Below, piece after piece: positions 6,877-19,345 of a DNA stretch of 20,000 nt. Source of the DNA: an uncultured virus (IMG/VR IMGVR_UViG_3300031687_001114) (Duplodnaviria > Heunggongvirae > Uroviricota > Caudoviricetes); the IMG/VR virus record IMGVR_UViG_3300031687_001114, positions 54,130-74,129 of that record, one strand, 5' to 3'. The translations under genes and the position numbers were made by a program. Position 1 is the first letter of the stretch; every line of letters begins with the position of its first letter. The notes under the pieces are model-generated. The model worked only from the letters and a program-made list of their open reading frames with translations, was not told the origin of the DNA and did not search any database.

Positions 6877-6881
6877 ACAAC

Positions 6882-6889
6882 TATTTATC
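6882..6889 (-). promoter_or_regulatory. Putative late promoter GATAAATA for the gp25-gp6 operon
   Basis: One mismatch to the T4 late consensus TATAAATA, 5 nt upstream of the gp25 ATG. The same 8-mer recurs at 13197-13214 and 17982-17989, and a gp55 gene is present. Confidence 0.65.
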
Positions 6890-6941
6890 CTAAAGGATTA
6901 AAACTAGTTATAATAAACACCATAATAAGCCTAAAAAAATG

Positions 6942-6970
6942 TTGACTTTTCAATAGAATGGATACATAAT
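6942..6970 (+). promoter_or_regulatory. Sigma70-type (early) promoter
   Basis: TTGACT (6942-6947), 17 bp, CATAAT (6965-6970). A-tract upstream; AGGA RBS before the ATG at 7020. Confidence 0.75.
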
Positions 6971-7019
6971 AACATAGTAGGAATTATCTTGCTAATTTTA
7001 TAAATTTATAGGAATAACA

Positions 7020-13254: not shown

Positions 13255-13283
13255 TTGACTTTGTCTTGCTTAGGCACTATAAT
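13255..13283 (+). promoter_or_regulatory. Sigma70-type promoter for the gp55-gp47-gp46 operon
   Basis: TTGACT (13255-13260), 17 bp, TATAAT (13278-13283); AAGGAG RBS at 13295-13300. Confidence 0.85.
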
Positions 13284-13305
13284 ACTGTTTAACTAAGGAG
13301 ATTAT

Positions 13306-14178
13306 ATGGCTCACATTACACCAAAAAAGGTTAATTATTTAAACAACAAAGACATACTAAAGCAGATTCATGCTAGTAAGATGTCGTATTGTTATGTGCA
13401 AGATGACAAGTACATGAACCCAGACATCATTTTAATGGATGTCAACGAAATTAATAAAACTACTATTAAACAGGCTCAAGAGAATAGGTCAGCAAAACTA
13501 CAATCAGAAGGCTACCAAACTGCTATGAAAGAAGGCGGTTGGGATAAGAAGCCTAAGCAGAAAGACTTTGCAGTTGATCCGCTTTCTCTTGCAGTAGATG
13601 AACTAGTGTTTAGAGTTATGGGATATGACCATATTCCAGATGAACCGGGTAGAAAGAAAACTACTAAAACAGTTGCTGATACAAAAGCAAAACTAAATTT
13701 CCCTCCATTTAAACATTATATAGTAGATGGTGCTGGAACAAATCCTAGGGAAGTTGCTAGAAGTCATTGGGTAGGTGGACTACACAATGGTCATTTTAGT
13801 GTTGACCACGGAAAAATTACAAATACCCTCGGTAGCATGTTTATGAAACTTGTAGAGCGTTACAGTCAAAGAGGTAACTGGCGAGGTTACACTTATGTTG
13901 ACGAAATGCGTGGACAAGCATTAGTACAACTTGCTCAAATAGGATTGCAATTCAACGAAGCAAAATCAGACAATCCATTTGCATATTATACCGCTACAGT
14001 TAATAACAGTTTCACTAGAGTGTTAAACTTAGAGAAACGTAACCAATCAATTAGAGACGACATCTTAATCGAGTCTGGTCATTTACCAAGTTATGGTAGA
14101 CAGATTGCATACGAGAATGAGATGAAAGAACTTCGTGCGATTGCAGAAACTGAAGTAGAAAATACATCAACTGAGTAA
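13306..14178 (+). CDS. gp55: Late-transcription sigma factor, T4 gp55-like
   Basis: NYLNNKDIL N-terminus; NWRGYTYVDEM and FNEAKSDNPFAYYTATVNNSFTRVLNLEK motifs; canonical position upstream of gp47-gp46. Confidence 0.88.
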   Translation: MAHITPKKVNYLNNKDILKQIHASKMSYCYVQDDKYMNPDIILMDVNEINKTTIKQAQENRSAKLQSEGYQTAMKEGGWDKKPKQKDFAVDPLSLAVDELVFRVMGYDHIPDEPGRKKTTKTVADTKAKLNFPPFKHYIVDGAGTNPREVARSHWVGGLHNGHFSVDHGKITNTLGSMFMKLVERYSQRGNWRGYTYVDEMRGQALVQLAQIGLQFNEAKSDNPFAYYTATVNNSFTRVLNLEKRNQSIRDDILIESGHLPSYGRQIAYENEMKELRAIAETEVENTSTE

Positions 14179-16981: not shown

Positions 16982-17407
16982 ATGACACCATGGACTTATG
17001 AAGGCAAAACAGTAGACTCACTTCCAGACGATTGCGAGGCATTTGTCTACTTAATTACTAATACCACAAACGATAGAAAGTATGTAGGTAAAAAGTTAGC
17101 CAAATTTAAAACAACTAAGCCTCCACTAAAAGGCAAAAAGAACAAACGTCGCGGAACGAAAGAATCGGACTGGAAAACTTATTGGGGAAGTTCAGATCAT
17201 CTAAATGCTGATGTATCAGAGCTAGGAGAAGGTAAGTTTACAAGAGAAATAATTTGGTATTGCCCCAGTAGAGGCGTTGCAAGTTATCTCGAAGCCAGAG
17301 AACAATTTGAAAGGCGTGTATTAGAAACCGATGATTACTATAACGGTATTATTAACGTTAGGGTAGGCGGTTCAAAAATTCTACGAGAAGCATTGAAAGA
17401 TAGATAA
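16982..17407 (+). CDS. Compact GIY-YIG family endonuclease (141 aa)
   Basis: FVYLITN...KYVGKK (GIY-YIG variant), YWGSS, helix with YLEAREQ glutamate and YYN asparagine; no obvious C-terminal NUMOD/HTH extension. Confidence 0.85.
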   Translation: MTPWTYEGKTVDSLPDDCEAFVYLITNTTNDRKYVGKKLAKFKTTKPPLKGKKNKRRGTKESDWKTYWGSSDHLNADVSELGEGKFTREIIWYCPSRGVASYLEAREQFERRVLETDDYYNGIINVRVGGSKILREALKDR

Positions 17408-17425
17408 CTAACTATTGCATAACAA

Positions 17426-17472
17426 CACAGACACCAAGTCACAGCAAGGCACACCACAGACACCAAGTCACA
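17426..17472 (+). repeat. Two exact 18-nt direct repeats CACAGACACCAAGTCACA
   Basis: Copies at 17426-17443 and 17455-17472, separated by 11 nt (GCAAGGCACAC). Confidence 0.95.
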
Positions 17473-17499
17473 CTACATAGGACTATACACCAGCCCCAC

Positions 17500-17833
17500 C
17501 CGAGGCCAATATCGGACTCCTCGACAAACCTGAACAAGGTGCGAGAATTGGAGATGTATAGCGGTAAAGATACAAACACACGACAAACTGTATTAAAAGG
17601 ATGTAGGCAATGAGAAAAAGCAACCTACAAGTTTGTGTAACTAAACTCTACAAGGTTACATAAATTTCCGTGAGATGAGACGGTAGTGTATGGGGACAGA
17701 AAGCTCACTGGTTCCTTATAGCACCCGAGTTAGAGATGATGATGGCTCATATGATGTCGACAGACACTATATTTTCCGAACAGCTTCTCCTTGCAATAGG
17801 AGAAGTATGACTCCAACTATATGATATCGCATT
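17500..17833 (+). ncRNA. Candidate large structured non-coding RNA of unknown class
   Basis: No plus-strand ORF in the track; about nine hairpins found by eye, several with G-U pairs on the + strand; long-range pairs 17548-53/17811-16 and 17540-44/17827-31 close a multibranch domain. Confidence 0.55.
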
Positions 17834-17851
17834 AATTAACTAATTAGAAAC

Positions 17852-17917
17852 TTTCTAACAAGAACTGAAATGAATGTAATGAATGAAGTTAGTAGTTGGA
17901 AAAGATACGAAGTATCT
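17852..17917 (+). other. Hairpins with GNA triloops and tandem G.A pairs (ssDNA-type structure)
   Basis: AACT-GA-A-AT-GA-AT-[GTA]-AT-GA-AT-GA-AGTT (17863-17890) on a TTTCTAAC/GTTGGAAA base stem; AGATAC-[GAA]-GTATCT (17903-17917). Confidence 0.5.
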
Positions 17918-17981
17918 AAAAAGCTAATTGTAATTAATTGTAACAAACATATATAAACAGTTCTAGAACTTATCCAATTAA

Positions 17982-17989
17982 GATAAATA
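17982..17989 (+). promoter_or_regulatory. Putative late promoter GATAAATA upstream of the heme-copper enzyme gene
   Basis: Same 8-mer as upstream of the structural operons, 78 nt before the ATG at 18068. Confidence 0.5.
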
Positions 17990-18067
17990 TATGTAAGAAT
18001 ATAACATAAGGTTATATTAGTATTAGAGCACTCGCTCGTAGTTGATACGCAATCCAAAGGAAAAAAC

Positions 18068-19345
18068 ATGTACAAGTATATACTCACGGCTTTTTTAGCC
18101 ACTGTGTCTACATCATCATGGGCAACAGACTATGTGTCAGGCGTTGCTGATATTATTAATAACAATTGTGTAGTATGCCATAGAGCAGGTGGCATAGGAC
18201 CAATGAGTTTTGAAACGTACGAACAAGTTAGACCATGGGCTCCTCTTATAAGTTATAAAGTAATGACAAGAGAGATGCCTCCATACGCATACGATCATGG
18301 AATTGGCATACAAGACTTGCAAGGAGATTGGCGTCTGTCTCAAATGGATATAGACACAATTGTGGAATGGGTAGATAAAGGAAGCCTACGAGGTGATCCT
18401 GACATAACGGTGCAGACAGCACAACTACCGGATCCAGAAGCATGGAGTTTCACTGAGCAGTTTGGCTTACCCGATACAGTTATACCCAGTGTAGCAATAG
18501 ACATTCCTGCAAGTGGTAACGACTTGTGGCATAAGCATTTAGTTCCGACTGGACTAACAGAGGATCGTTGCATAAAAGCAGTACAAGTTAAGCCACGTGG
18601 CGAAGCTAAAGCAGTAGTACATCACGCCAACAGTAGTATTATAACTGAGAGCGGTAACCAGGGCATGTTAACAGAATATGCAATGGGTAAATGGGGTGAG
18701 ATAGTACCAGAGGGTGTGTGCAGGACTATTCCAGCAAATGCAGAAGTAAGTTGGGACATTCATATGTACCCAGGTGGATTAGGCGCAATGGCTCCTGGGA
18801 GTGTAATCAAAGACAATGTAGTAGAGATAGGACTTTGGCTATACTCACAAGAAGAAAGTGAAACATTAAAGTATAAGCAAGACTTATCGTTGTATCGCTT
18901 AGGTGACCAAGACGATATAGTTATTGCTCCGAACGGTTATCACATGACACAAGGCTTCCACAGTTTTGACCATCCTGTGAGATTAGACAGTTTTCAACCA
19001 CACGGGCATTTAAGAATGAATGCCGCAAGTTTGGAAATATTCTATCCTATCACAGGCAAAACAGAACAAATTAGCCAAGTATCAAATTGGAGTGCAACAT
19101 GGCATCACAGTCATTTATATGCTCCAGATGTAGCACCGCTAATTCCAGCTGGTGCAGTTATTGTATTGAAACAATGGTACGACAACACATCAGATAACCC
19201 AAACAACCCAGACTCTGATATGTGGGTAATGGGCGGTAGTAGAACAGGGGACGAAATGACCCACGCCTGGTTAGCTATAACACACTTAGACGAAGAAGGA
19301 TACACATCACTATTAGACAAACGGAGAGAAAACGGTGCTGACTAA
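18068..19345 (+). CDS. Secreted cytochrome c domain + copper type II (PHM/DBH-like) monooxygenase-fold protein
   Basis: Signal peptide ending SWA; heme c motif CVVCH (18167-18181) with MPP distal Met; candidate Cu ligands VHHA, DIHM, PHGH and DEM in the order of the PHM CuH (HH, H) and CuM (HxH, M) sites; AAAGG RBS. Confidence 0.82.
   Translation: MYKYILTAFLATVSTSSWATDYVSGVADIINNNCVVCHRAGGIGPMSFETYEQVRPWAPLISYKVMTREMPPYAYDHGIGIQDLQGDWRLSQMDIDTIVEWVDKGSLRGDPDITVQTAQLPDPEAWSFTEQFGLPDTVIPSVAIDIPASGNDLWHKHLVPTGLTEDRCIKAVQVKPRGEAKAVVHHANSSIITESGNQGMLTEYAMGKWGEIVPEGVCRTIPANAEVSWDIHMYPGGLGAMAPGSVIKDNVVEIGLWLYSQEESETLKYKQDLSLYRLGDQDDIVIAPNGYHMTQGFHSFDHPVRLDSFQPHGHLRMNAASLEIFYPITGKTEQISQVSNWSATWHHSHLYAPDVAPLIPAGAVIVLKQWYDNTSDNPNNPDSDMWVMGGSRTGDEMTHAWLAITHLDEEGYTSLLDKRRENGAD

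What the first reader, a model, noticed from the sequence alone, without database searches (positions are those of the whole stretch)
17500..17833. Candidate large structured ncRNA downstream of gp46 and the GIY-YIG gene
Seen in sequence: a 660-nt gap in a genome where genes otherwise abut or overlap. It is packed with stems: CGAGG/CCTCG (17501-05/17519-23), ACCT/AGGT (17528-40), TGTAT/ATACA (17555-74), TGTAGG/CCTACA (17602-29), a ~14-bp stem with 3 G-U pairs (17629-42/17654-67), CCGT/ACGG (17668-83), GTGTATGGGGAC/GTTCCTTATAGCAC (17686-724), GAGTTA/TGGCTC (17727-48) and CTTCTCCT-TGCAAT-AGGAGAAG (17784-805). TTGGAG/CTCCAA (17548-53/17811-16) and TGCGA/TCGCA (17540-44/17827-31) enclose most of these in one ~290-nt multibranch domain. 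TAGTGT (17684-89) can alternatively pair with ACACTA at 17764-69 or 17470-75, suggesting a pseudoknot or switch. G-U pairs favour the + strand. Inference: a functional RNA that I cannot match to tRNA, tmRNA, RNase P or group I/II introns.
Basis: partly seen in the sequence, partly recalled or inferred. Interest (0 to 1): 0.85.

Follow-up and report, generated by a model that had tools for sequence, protein, structure and literature searches.

The report
New ornate RNA of marine phages
The gap holds a real, strongly conserved, roughly 355-base folded RNA gene with two pseudoknots that matches no described RNA family, always sits behind a small nuclease gene in a group of uncultured marine phages, and carries two oddly identical short boxes whose role is unknown.

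Summary
The 660-nt gap (17408-18067) is real. Window 17475-17829 (+ strand) encodes a conserved structured RNA. Homologs occur in at least 119 IMG/VR stretches and in 65 of 80 fetched metagenome loci. On 48 distinct sequences, 72 proposed pairs in 14 helices are 95.6% paired, and 41 pairs show changes on both sides (0/500 shuffles reach this). There are two long-range pseudoknots. G-U cells (346) far outnumber A-C cells (25), so the + strand is the RNA. It is not coding, not a tRNA or tmRNA, and has no Rfam 15 match in the window or in 20 homologs.

His two enclosing helices and his "switch" are not supported.

A SegE-like GIY-YIG gene lies upstream on the same strand in 95/95 distinct loci, even where the pair is inverted relative to gp46. 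Genes inserted between them in 9 loci, and a cultured phage with the nuclease but no RNA, show the two are separable.

Most unusual are two boxes about 46-72 nt apart, flanking a hairpin. They vary between phages but are identical within each phage (95/95 at three positions). No complementary partner was found.

Best reading: a new family of trans-acting phage RNA. Its biochemical role is open.

The parts
16982..17407 (+). 141-aa SegE-like GIY-YIG nuclease gene. It is the constant upstream neighbour of the RNA.
   Evidence: Pfam PF19835 E 4e-34; phrog_447 E 7e-37. It lies upstream on the same strand in 95/95 distinct loci that have >=2.1 kb of upstream flank. There are 81 distinct homologs, none with an internal stop.
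17408..17474 (+). Leader between the GIY stop codon and the RNA core. It holds an 18-nt direct repeat (17427-17444 and 17456-17473). Homologs carry 2-4 tandem AAGGCACAY units and 1-2 CAGACACCAAGTCA units here.
   Evidence: Sequence and upstream regions of 80+ homologs. No sigma-70-like promoter was scored here.
17475..17829 (+). Conserved structured RNA, about 355 nt.
   Evidence: Column conservation, alignment A1, pair counts, fold z-score.
17483..17561 (+). Helix Pa (17483-89 with 17555-61). It encloses hairpins Pb (17500-03/17512-15) and Pc (17529-31/17537-39, plus pair 17525/17543).
   Evidence: All 4 Pb pairs change on both sides with 100% of cells paired. Pa has 3 of 7 pairs with both-side changes. 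Pc varies in length between clades.
17569..17594 (+). Hairpin Pd (17569-73/17590-94).
   Evidence: 100% of cells paired, 2 pairs with both-side changes.
17602..17629 (+). Hairpin Pe. Its 16-nt loop carries the nearly invariant block TGAGAAAAAGCAA.
   Evidence: 4 of 6 pairs change on both sides.
17630..17666 (+). 13-bp hairpin Pf. Its loop (17646-17651) forms pseudoknot PK1.
   Evidence: 11 of 13 pairs change on both sides.
17646..17735 (+). Pseudoknot PK1: 17646-17651 pairs with 17729-17735 (17731 bulged).
   Evidence: 5 of 6 pairs change on both sides, for example 17650/17730 AU 65, UA 15, CG 8, GC 2.
17668..17724 (+). Hairpin Pg (17668-71/17680-83, invariant). Its loop 17672-74 pairs with 17704-06 in the loop of Pi (17691-97/17711-17). 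Pi is stacked on Ph (17686-89/17721-24).
   Evidence: All 3 loop-loop pairs change on both sides (GAG/CUC, GGG/CCC, AGG/CCU, AAG/CUU) and are 100% paired on A1; on the 95 sequences two are paired in 95/95 and the third in 92/95. Divergent L225 has GCGGA/UCCGC.
17745..17759 (+). Box A (GCTCATATGATGTCG).
   Evidence: Same-base covariation with box B.
17784..17805 (+). Hairpin Pk between the two boxes, preceded by a variable T-rich spacer.
   Evidence: 2 of 7 pairs change on both sides, 89% of cells paired (the alignment register is uncertain).
17814..17829 (+). Box B (CAACTATATGATATCG), at the 3' edge of conservation.
17868..17925 (+). Conserved non-coding block downstream. It could be a 3' extension or a separate element.
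   Evidence: about 68% column conservation; the reading frame is not kept between homologs; present 10-60 nt after the RNA in 74 of 174 loci that have enough flank.

Best explanation
Window 17475-17829 (+ strand) is the gene for a stable, highly structured non-coding RNA of a previously undescribed family. The family is confined to one clade of uncultured, mostly marine, large T4-like phages. The nearest cultured gp46 is in Pseudomonas jumbo phage PA5oct, at 52% amino-acid identity.

Shown: the RNA folds into at least 14 helices, including a long-range helix (Pa), a 6-bp pseudoknot (PK1) and a 3-5-bp loop-loop contact. That level of complexity is seen in ribozymes and in large ornate RNAs.

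Inferred:
- It acts in trans as an RNA or RNP machine, not as a cis regulator of a particular gene.
- Its 3' tail presents two copies of one short recognition sequence (boxes A and B) on either side of hairpin Pk. These most likely dock the same phage-specific partner twice. The partner is probably a nucleic acid, because the boxes drift in sequence yet stay identical to each other.
- The SegE-like GIY-YIG gene next to it is best read as a homing-endonuclease-type gene that has settled beside a highly conserved RNA gene and travels with it. This resembles Seg endonuclease genes beside stable-RNA genes in T4 (recalled).
- The nuclease is not read as an obligatory subunit.
For: Conservation. The intergenic DNA is 69-96% identical across relatives whose gp46 protein is only 66-84% identical. 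Core columns are more than 80-90% conserved.

Structure. 95.6% of cells are paired against 85.3% in shuffles. 41 of 72 pairs have both-side changes against 24.1 in shuffles and 8-22 when partners are slid. The covariation score is 0.342 against 0.153, with 0/500 shuffles as high and slid versions at most 0.084.

Strand. There are 346 G-U cells against 25 A-C cells. Fold z-score is -2.88 on + against -1.14 on -.

Not coding. Distances between conserved anchors take all residues mod 3. Open frames differ between homologs.

No known family. Rfam 15 gives 0 gathering hits in the window, only chance-level hits at E>3, and nothing consistent in 20 homolog loci. ARAGORN finds none.

Breadth. There are 0 hits in 185,579 species genomes with the strict pattern. 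Each of six 74-110-kb contigs holds one copy.

Separability from the nuclease. In 9 of 95 loci other genes sit between them, five times a 165-aa ORF on the opposite strand. Cultured phage Melnitz has the nuclease (76% identical) but no RNA.

Downstream genes differ between loci, which argues against a cis regulator.

Boxes. They are identical in 95/95 sequences at the 3 nt before UGAU (6 different triplets) and in 93/95 also at the 2 nt after (12 haplotypes). Box A of one phage paired with box B of another matches only 14.9% of the time. Another 29 metagenome sequences give 29/29 and 28/29. L225 changed U to A in both box cores together.
Against: The transcript, its ends and its stability are therefore inferred.

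No promoter or terminator was recognised by the simple scans. Co-transcription with gp47-gp46-GIY and later processing is possible.

No partner for the boxes was found. There is no complementary or extra same-sense copy (at most 1 mismatch in 14) in six contigs of 74-110 kb. No perfectly co-varying column occurs in the RNA or in about 600 nt of flank. Those contigs are only 21-28% of the estimated genomes.

The nuclease gene is present in 95/95 loci. That is unusual for a purely selfish homing gene and keeps an RNP reading alive.

The structure between 17516 and 17554 and around box A is not resolved. One sequence (L384) has box A interrupted.
Confidence: 0.6

Rival explanations
1. The RNA and the 141-aa GIY-YIG protein form one ribonucleoprotein. 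The protein has a nuclease domain but no separate DNA-binding domain. The RNA would supply scaffolding or target recognition, for example through the boxes. The pair would move as a mobile nuclease-plus-RNA module, in the way that TnpB or IscB genes travel with a structured RNA encoded beside them.
For: The nuclease gene is upstream on the same strand in 95/95 distinct loci and within 110 nt in 86. The pair stays together when inverted relative to gp46 (11 loci) and in 3 loci without gp46. The protein is 123 of 141 residues GIY-YIG domain, is intact in 81 distinct homologs, and is 72-100% identical to the window's. This is generally more conserved than gp46, which falls to 55-66%.
Against: Melnitz carries a 76%-identical protein next to nrdB with no such RNA anywhere in its genome. 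The same protein family (phrog_447) is common in cyanophage records. Nine loci have other genes between the two. No protein or leader column tracks the box haplotype perfectly. No RNA-guided GIY-YIG enzyme is known to me (recalled).
Confidence: 0.15
2. The element is a cis-acting 3' untranslated region of the GIY-YIG or gp46 operon transcript. It would stabilise, process or limit expression of the nuclease mRNA and would not be an independent RNA.
For: It has the same strand and close spacing (55-110 nt) in 86 of 95 loci. No separate promoter was recognised. The only clear sigma-70-type promoter nearby is upstream of the late-sigma gene.
Against: In five loci an opposite-strand ORF lies between the nuclease gene and the RNA, and in others 1-2 unrelated genes do. 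About 355 nt with two pseudoknots is far beyond known 3'-end stabilisers. The leader motifs stay attached to the RNA, not to the nuclease gene, in the insertion variants.
Confidence: 0.1
3. Boxes A and B are matching take-off and landing (or template-end) sequences for a polymerase. A nascent strand ending in box A could re-pair at box B. That would skip or reiterate the 46-72-nt unit with hairpin Pk. This resembles RNA templates of reverse transcriptases that make tandem repeats, or, at the DNA level, a slippage-prone deletion site.
For: The two direct repeats are maintained strictly identical while their sequence drifts. A hairpin lies between them. No complementary partner was found. Published ncRNA templates need repeated ends (DRT2 in passages of 10.64898/2026.09.22.753630; DRT10 in the abstract listing of 10.64898/2026.06.29.735271).
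Against: No reverse transcriptase (PF00078) is present in the window's contig or in five related contigs of 90-110 kb, though each is only 21-28% complete. The unit length is not fixed (46-72 nt). None of 124 unique sequences lacks the interval, that is, none has a single box.
Confidence: 0.05
4. The conservation is at the DNA level (replication origin, recombination or packaging site, or protein-binding iterons), and the apparent RNA structure is incidental.
For: Direct repeats occur in the leader and in the tail. The element is located beside the recombination genes gp46/47.
Against: Compensatory changes keep Watson-Crick and G-U pairs in 41 of 72 pairs, including two pseudoknots. The strong G-U over A-C asymmetry is meaningless for duplex DNA. 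Folding is better than shuffles only on the + strand.
Confidence: 0.04

Closest known systems
Large ornate phage- or bacterium-associated RNAs of unknown function (GOLLD, ROOL, OLE, raiA). Rfam families; cryo-EM paper 10.1101/2024.12.08.627333 seen only as a search listing with abstract.
   Same: It is several hundred nucleotides long and has many helices with pseudoknots or loop-loop contacts. It is found in phage genomes, is not tied to one downstream gene, and has no known function.
   Different: There is no match to any of these Rfam models at E<=10. It sits beside a GIY-YIG gene rather than tRNA clusters. It has the twin identical boxes. Whether it multimerises was not tested.
T4 stable RNAs and tRNA genes with the neighbouring Seg homing endonuclease (SegB in the tRNA region). 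Recalled, not read here.
   Same: A Seg-type GIY-YIG gene sits next to a conserved structured-RNA gene in a T4-like phage. The pair is inherited together.
   Different: Here the nuclease gene is present in 95/95 loci rather than sporadically. The RNA is about 355 nt and is not a tRNA. Cleavage of nuclease-less alleles could not be tested, because no such alleles were found.
T4 gene 60 bypass cassette: a homing endonuclease gene plus a 50-nt insert with matching take-off and landing codons. Recalled.
   Same: A short insert containing a hairpin is flanked by identical triplets. The first triplet is followed at once by a stop triplet (UGA). It lies next to a homing-endonuclease-type gene.
   Different: No open reading frame runs into box A or out of box B. 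Box B is itself followed by UGA and, in 119 of 124 unique sequences, by UAA or UAG. The identity spans about 14 nt, not one codon. So it cannot be ribosomal bypassing.
TnpB/IscB omega-RNAs. Abstracts of PMC10690162 and PMC10055086 seen in a search listing.
   Same: A nuclease gene has a large structured RNA encoded beside it, and the two move as one unit. The concept is a nuclease that biases inheritance of its own locus.
   Different: The nuclease fold is unrelated (GIY-YIG, not RuvC). There are no transposon ends and no TnpA. No hypervariable 3' guide was identified. The nuclease occurs without the RNA in Melnitz.
Paired protein-binding RNA sites that are identical within a phage but differ between phages (lambdoid nutL/nutR). 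Recalled.
   Same: Two copies of one short RNA signal beside a hairpin are identical within a genome and divergent between relatives.
   Different: Here both copies lie in one RNA 46-72 nt apart. No N-like partner protein is identified. The copies are not at the heads of two operons.

Membership tests
Any Rfam 15 family (4227 models, including RNase P, tmRNA, 6S, group I/II introns, GOLLD, ROOL, OLE, HEARO, riboswitches) | Score at or above the family's gathering cut-off with the covariance model | tested here: not met
   There are 0 gathering hits in the 20-kb window. At E<=10 in 17300-18200 there are only five hits of 13.8-21.7 bits, against cut-offs of 47-61. In 20 homolog loci there are two unrelated chance hits.
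tRNA / tmRNA | Cloverleaf or tRNA-like domain, with a tag reading frame for tmRNA, as detected by ARAGORN | tested here: not met
   ARAGORN finds 0 genes in the window. Five related contigs hold none at the RNA locus.
Group I intron with GIY-YIG homing endonuclease | Interrupts a host gene whose exons are joined after splicing | tested here: not met
   gp46 is complete (589 aa; residues 1-581 of 589 align with PA5oct gp46) and ends before the nuclease ORF. Flanking genes differ between loci, and the module occurs in both orientations.
Group I intron with GIY-YIG homing endonuclease | P3-P8/P7 pseudoknot core recognised by the Rfam intron model | tested here: not met
   The intron model gives no hit. 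The order of helices and pseudoknots found does not follow the recalled group I strand order.
Protein-coding gene | Reading frame kept among homologs | tested here: not met
   Anchor-to-anchor distances fall in all three classes mod 3 (40/31/23, 42/29/23, 50/22/22). The longest open frames lie in different frames in different homologs.
Box C/D guide RNA | Paired C/D and C'/D' boxes forming kink-turns, with guides complementary to rRNA or tRNA | tested here: inconclusive
   Box A contains a heptamer like the recalled box C consensus. Rfam C/D models score only 17-19 bits against cut-offs of 47. No D-box partner or target was identified.
Type III toxin-antitoxin RNA (ToxI-like repeats) | Tandem array of near-identical repeat units next to an endoribonuclease toxin gene | tested here: not met
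   Only two 15-16-nt boxes occur within a unique-sequence 355-nt RNA. The neighbour is a GIY-YIG domain protein.
Reverse-transcriptase template ncRNA (retron, DRT) | Adjacent or genome-encoded reverse transcriptase | tested here: inconclusive
   PF00078 is absent from 6 contigs of 74-110 kb, but these are only 21-28% of the estimated genomes.
New family proposed here | Pa, Pe loop block, Pf-PK1, Pg-Pi loop contact, Ph/Pi, twin boxes around Pk | tested here: met
   The window sequence is the first row of A1 and A2 and carries every element. Model R1 scores five related contigs at 135-170 bits and 65 metagenome loci at 123-172 bits.

The most novel reading that the evidence does not exclude
The RNA is the core of a new kind of mobile ribonucleoprotein or catalytic RNA of large marine phages. 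A minimal GIY-YIG nuclease would travel with an ornate RNA whose two self-identical boxes act as programmable docking sites for a phage-specific nucleic acid. Alternatively the boxes act as matched take-off and landing sites that let a polymerase jump or reiterate the hairpin unit. Either way, it would be the first RNA-assisted GIY-YIG system.
Probability: 0.15. Interest if true: 0.95.

Novelty: categorically new. Interest (0 to 1): 0.8.

Why it matters
Large RNAs with this much tertiary structure are rare, and nearly all that have been solved turned out to be ribozymes, riboswitch-like sensors or self-assembling cages. This one is abundant in ocean metagenomes, including TARA and other marine assemblies. 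It belongs to an uncultured clade of large phages and is absent from Rfam and from the three literature searches run here.

Its constant pairing with a small nuclease gene is unusual. So is its same-base covariation between two boxes, a pattern that ordinary RNA folding does not explain. Together these give concrete, testable handles on a possibly new RNA mechanism. At the least, they add a well-supported new family for annotating marine viromes.

Tried and rejected
Known families. Rfam was run at gathering and at E<=10 on the window and on 20 homolog loci and gave nothing. ARAGORN gave nothing.

GenBank phages. blastn gave no match for the gap or the core. Model R1 found nothing in the complete genomes of Melnitz and PA5oct, nor in 73 loci around the 425-aa gene.

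Coding. Rejected.

Cis partner for boxes A and B:
- Exact 7-mer complements in the loci: none consistent.
- Best RNA duplexes with the upstream RNA: scattered and weak.
- Columns segregating with the A/T state among 35 close sequences: only the two box positions themselves.
- Flanks of 560 and 700 nt: no perfect column.
- Six contigs of 74-110 kb: no further same-sense or complementary copy.

Pairing of box A with box B through a palindrome was rejected by eye. The palindrome exists only in some clades.

Ribosomal bypassing and mini-ORF readings were rejected, because there is no frame into box A and the box B mini-ORF is out of frame in several clades.

Reverse transcriptase: none found in partial genomes.

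The apparent excess of GGCACAC on the - strand is coding sequence, not a promoter motif.

The catalogue of about 10,000 candidate viral RNAs (PMC10690425) was checked only by term search of the main text and of the supplements that could be read. Files 1, 2 and 4 were not searched. It lists candidates upstream of GIY-YIG genes, which is not this arrangement. This RNA may therefore be an unnamed entry there.

Earlier-findings look-ups returned nothing.

Full report
**What is there.** The window is the last 20 kb of a 74-kb IMG/VR virus contig judged 21% complete. The gene order around the finding is:
- late sigma factor (13306-14178; phrog_12791 E 7e-92; 45% identical to PA5oct gp346)
- gp47-like phosphoesterase
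- gp46-like SMC/AAA protein
- a 141-aa SegE-like GIY-YIG protein (16982-17407; Pfam PF19835 E 4e-34)
- a 660-nt gap
- a 425-aa ORF without Pfam or PHROG match

The closest cultured gp46 is in Pseudomonas jumbo phage PA5oct, at 52% identity. PA5oct has the same sigma-gp47-gp46 order but no nuclease gene or RNA after it.

**Is the observation more than chance?** Yes. The + strand of 17500-17833 folds at -87 kcal/mol (z -2.88, 0/100 shuffles as good). The - strand gives z -1.14.

The stronger evidence is comparative. The gap sequence is conserved at 69-96% nucleotide identity in relatives whose gp46 is only 66-84% identical. nhmmer found the element in 199 of 280 fetched loci. Of these, 185 were full length and gave 95 unique sequences. 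Conservation peaks at 17590-17760, where columns are more than 80-90% conserved. It drops at 17448-17472, 17763-17785 and after 17829.

**Structure.** I derived helices from mutual information and pair tables on the 95 sequences. I then counted them with the independent tool on alignment A1 (48 distinct rows).
- 72 pairs in 14 helices are 95.6% paired, against 85.3% in shuffles (0/500 as high).
- 41 pairs change on both sides, against a shuffle mean of 24.1 (0/500) and 8-22 when partners are slid.
- The covariation score is 0.342, against 0.153 for shuffles and at most 0.084 for slid versions.

The best-supported elements are:
- Pf, with 11 of 13 pairs compensated
- Pb, with 4 of 4
- Pe, with 4 of 6
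- pseudoknot PK1, between the Pf loop (17646-51) and 17729-35, with 5 of 6
- a loop-loop contact, 17672-74 with 17704-06, with 3 of 3. The divergent L225 switches to GCGGA/UCCGC here.

Pg (CCGU/ACGG) is invariant, so covariation says nothing about it. A small pair set inside the Pi loop (17702-03/17708-09) also covaries and may compete with a longer version of the loop-loop helix. I could not resolve this point. I also could not resolve the fold of 17516-17554 or the region just 5' of box A.

G-U cells (346) outnumber A-C cells (25), so the RNA is read from the + strand.

The segment UAUGG..CCUUAU in Ph/Pi resembles the recalled 11-nt tetraloop receptor. Some clades insert GAAA- or GCAA-capped extensions into Pg. 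This is a lead only.

Six of his nine local stems stand. Of these, five are supported by covariation and one is compatible but invariant. Three are replaced by other pairings, and both enclosing helices and the TAGTGT switch fail. His overall inference stands.

**Not something known.**
- Rfam 15 gives no gathering hit. At E<=10 there are only chance hits, and there is nothing consistent across 20 homolog loci.
- There is no tRNA or tmRNA.
- It is not coding. Spacing between anchors takes all residues mod 3, and open frames shift between homologs.
- blastn finds no copy in 50,697 GenBank phage records.
- A strict pattern finds none in one genome for each of 185,579 prokaryote species.
- Three literature searches found no description. 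The large catalogue of candidate viral RNAs (PMC10690425) was only partly searchable and could hold it unnamed.

**Distribution.**
Of the 80 that were fetched, 65 are true by covariance model R1, at 123-172 bits. The other 15 are chance pattern matches.
- Record names include many ocean surveys.
- Each of six contigs of 74-110 kb has exactly one copy.

**Context.** In 95 of 95 distinct loci with at least 2.1 kb of upstream flank, the GIY-YIG gene lies upstream on the same strand. It is within 110 nt in 86 and further away in 9. gp46 is on the same strand in 81, on the opposite strand in 11, and absent from the locus in 3. So the nuclease gene and the RNA stay together through an inversion.

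They are nevertheless separable:
- The nine spaced loci carry inserted genes. Five times this is a 165-aa ORF on the opposite strand. Elsewhere it is a second GIY-YIG-like gene, a methyltransferase-like gene, or two other genes.
- The leader motifs stay with the RNA.
- The cultured Methylophilales phage Melnitz has a 76%-identical nuclease next to nrdB and no RNA in its whole genome.

The protein belongs to phrog_447, which is common in cyanophage records. All 81 distinct homologs here are intact. Genes downstream of the RNA differ between loci.

I therefore read the RNA as its own gene and the nuclease as a homing-type gene fixed beside it. The RNP alternative is kept at 0.15.

**The twin boxes.** The strongest covariation in the whole alignment is between like bases, not complementary ones. 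Box A (17745-59) and box B (17814-29) flank a T-rich spacer and hairpin Pk.

Anchored on the invariant UGAUG (A) and UGAUA (B), the three preceding bases are identical in 95/95 unique sequences. They take six different values: TCA, ACA, TCG, TCT, ACT, ATA. The two following bases are also identical in 93/95, giving 12 haplotypes. A box A paired with another phage's box B matches only 14.9% of the time.

Twenty-nine further metagenome sequences give 29/29 and 28/29. One more (L384) has a 6-nt insert in box A. In L225 the otherwise invariant core changed U to A in both boxes.

Among 35 close sequences differing by A or T at one box position, the only perfectly associated columns in 425 nt are the two box positions themselves. 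No partner was found in the flanks or in 74-110 kb of six genomes.

Ordinary intramolecular pairing therefore does not explain the identity. The remaining explanations are:
- a shared trans partner whose sequence differs between phages
- matched polymerase take-off and landing or template ends (no reverse transcriptase was found in the partial genomes)
- DNA-level homogenisation

This stays unexplained. It is the most interesting handle on function.

**Verdict.** This is a real RNA of a new family with complex tertiary structure. Shown: conservation, covariation, strand, non-coding nature, linkage to the nuclease gene, and box identity. Inferred: that it is a stable trans-acting RNA, and that the boxes dock one partner twice. 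Unknown: the transcript ends, any partner, and any catalysis.

Noticed in passing
window 17427-17444 and 17456-17473; leaders of L163, L045, L042, L078 and others: The leader between the nuclease stop codon and the RNA carries short direct repeats. In the window this is an 18-mer present twice. In homologs there are 2-4 tandem AAGGCACAY units and 1-2 CAGACACCAAGTCA units. They could be protein-binding sites or promoter elements.
   Followed up: partly
window 17868-17925: A conserved block lies 10-60 nt after the RNA in 74 of 174 loci. It reads like a 16-28-aa peptide (MNE.NE..SW..), but one-base indels change the frame between homologs. It is therefore probably non-coding: a 3' extension of the RNA or a separate element.
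   Followed up: partly
window 18068-19345: The 425-aa ORF has an N-terminal hydrophobic stretch and a CxxCH motif but no Pfam or PHROG match. Relatives occur in 246 IMG/VR stretches, and none of the 73 related loci searched carries the RNA.
   Followed up: no
window 13255-13285 and 6930-6975: There are textbook sigma-70-type promoters. TTGACT, 17 nt, TATAAT lies upstream of the late-sigma gene, and a similar one lies in the divergent region at 6877-7019. Nothing comparable lies in front of the RNA.
   Followed up: no
window 16982-17407; phrog_447: The PHROG family and many GenBank cyanophage records label this small GIY-YIG protein 'NAD synthetase'. Given the Pfam SegE_GIY-YIG match, this looks like a propagated mis-annotation.
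   Followed up: partly
L187, L168, L214, L218, L223 (between nuclease gene and RNA): A 165-169-aa ORF on the opposite strand (two copies in L223) is inserted between the nuclease gene and the RNA. L225 has a second, longer GIY-YIG-like ORF there, and L231 has a 343-aa and a 142-aa ORF. This spot seems to be an insertion hotspot.
   Followed up: no
L384:1025-1185: One metagenome copy has six extra bases inside box A while box B is normal. It is the only such exception: none of the 95 + 29 unique sequences counted has an interrupted box.
   Followed up: no
L292:9847-10439 (related contig G002): A small tRNA cluster (Ser-GCT, Gly-GCC, Ala-TGC) lies about 39 kb from the RNA locus in one related contig. 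None was found in the other four contigs.
   Followed up: no
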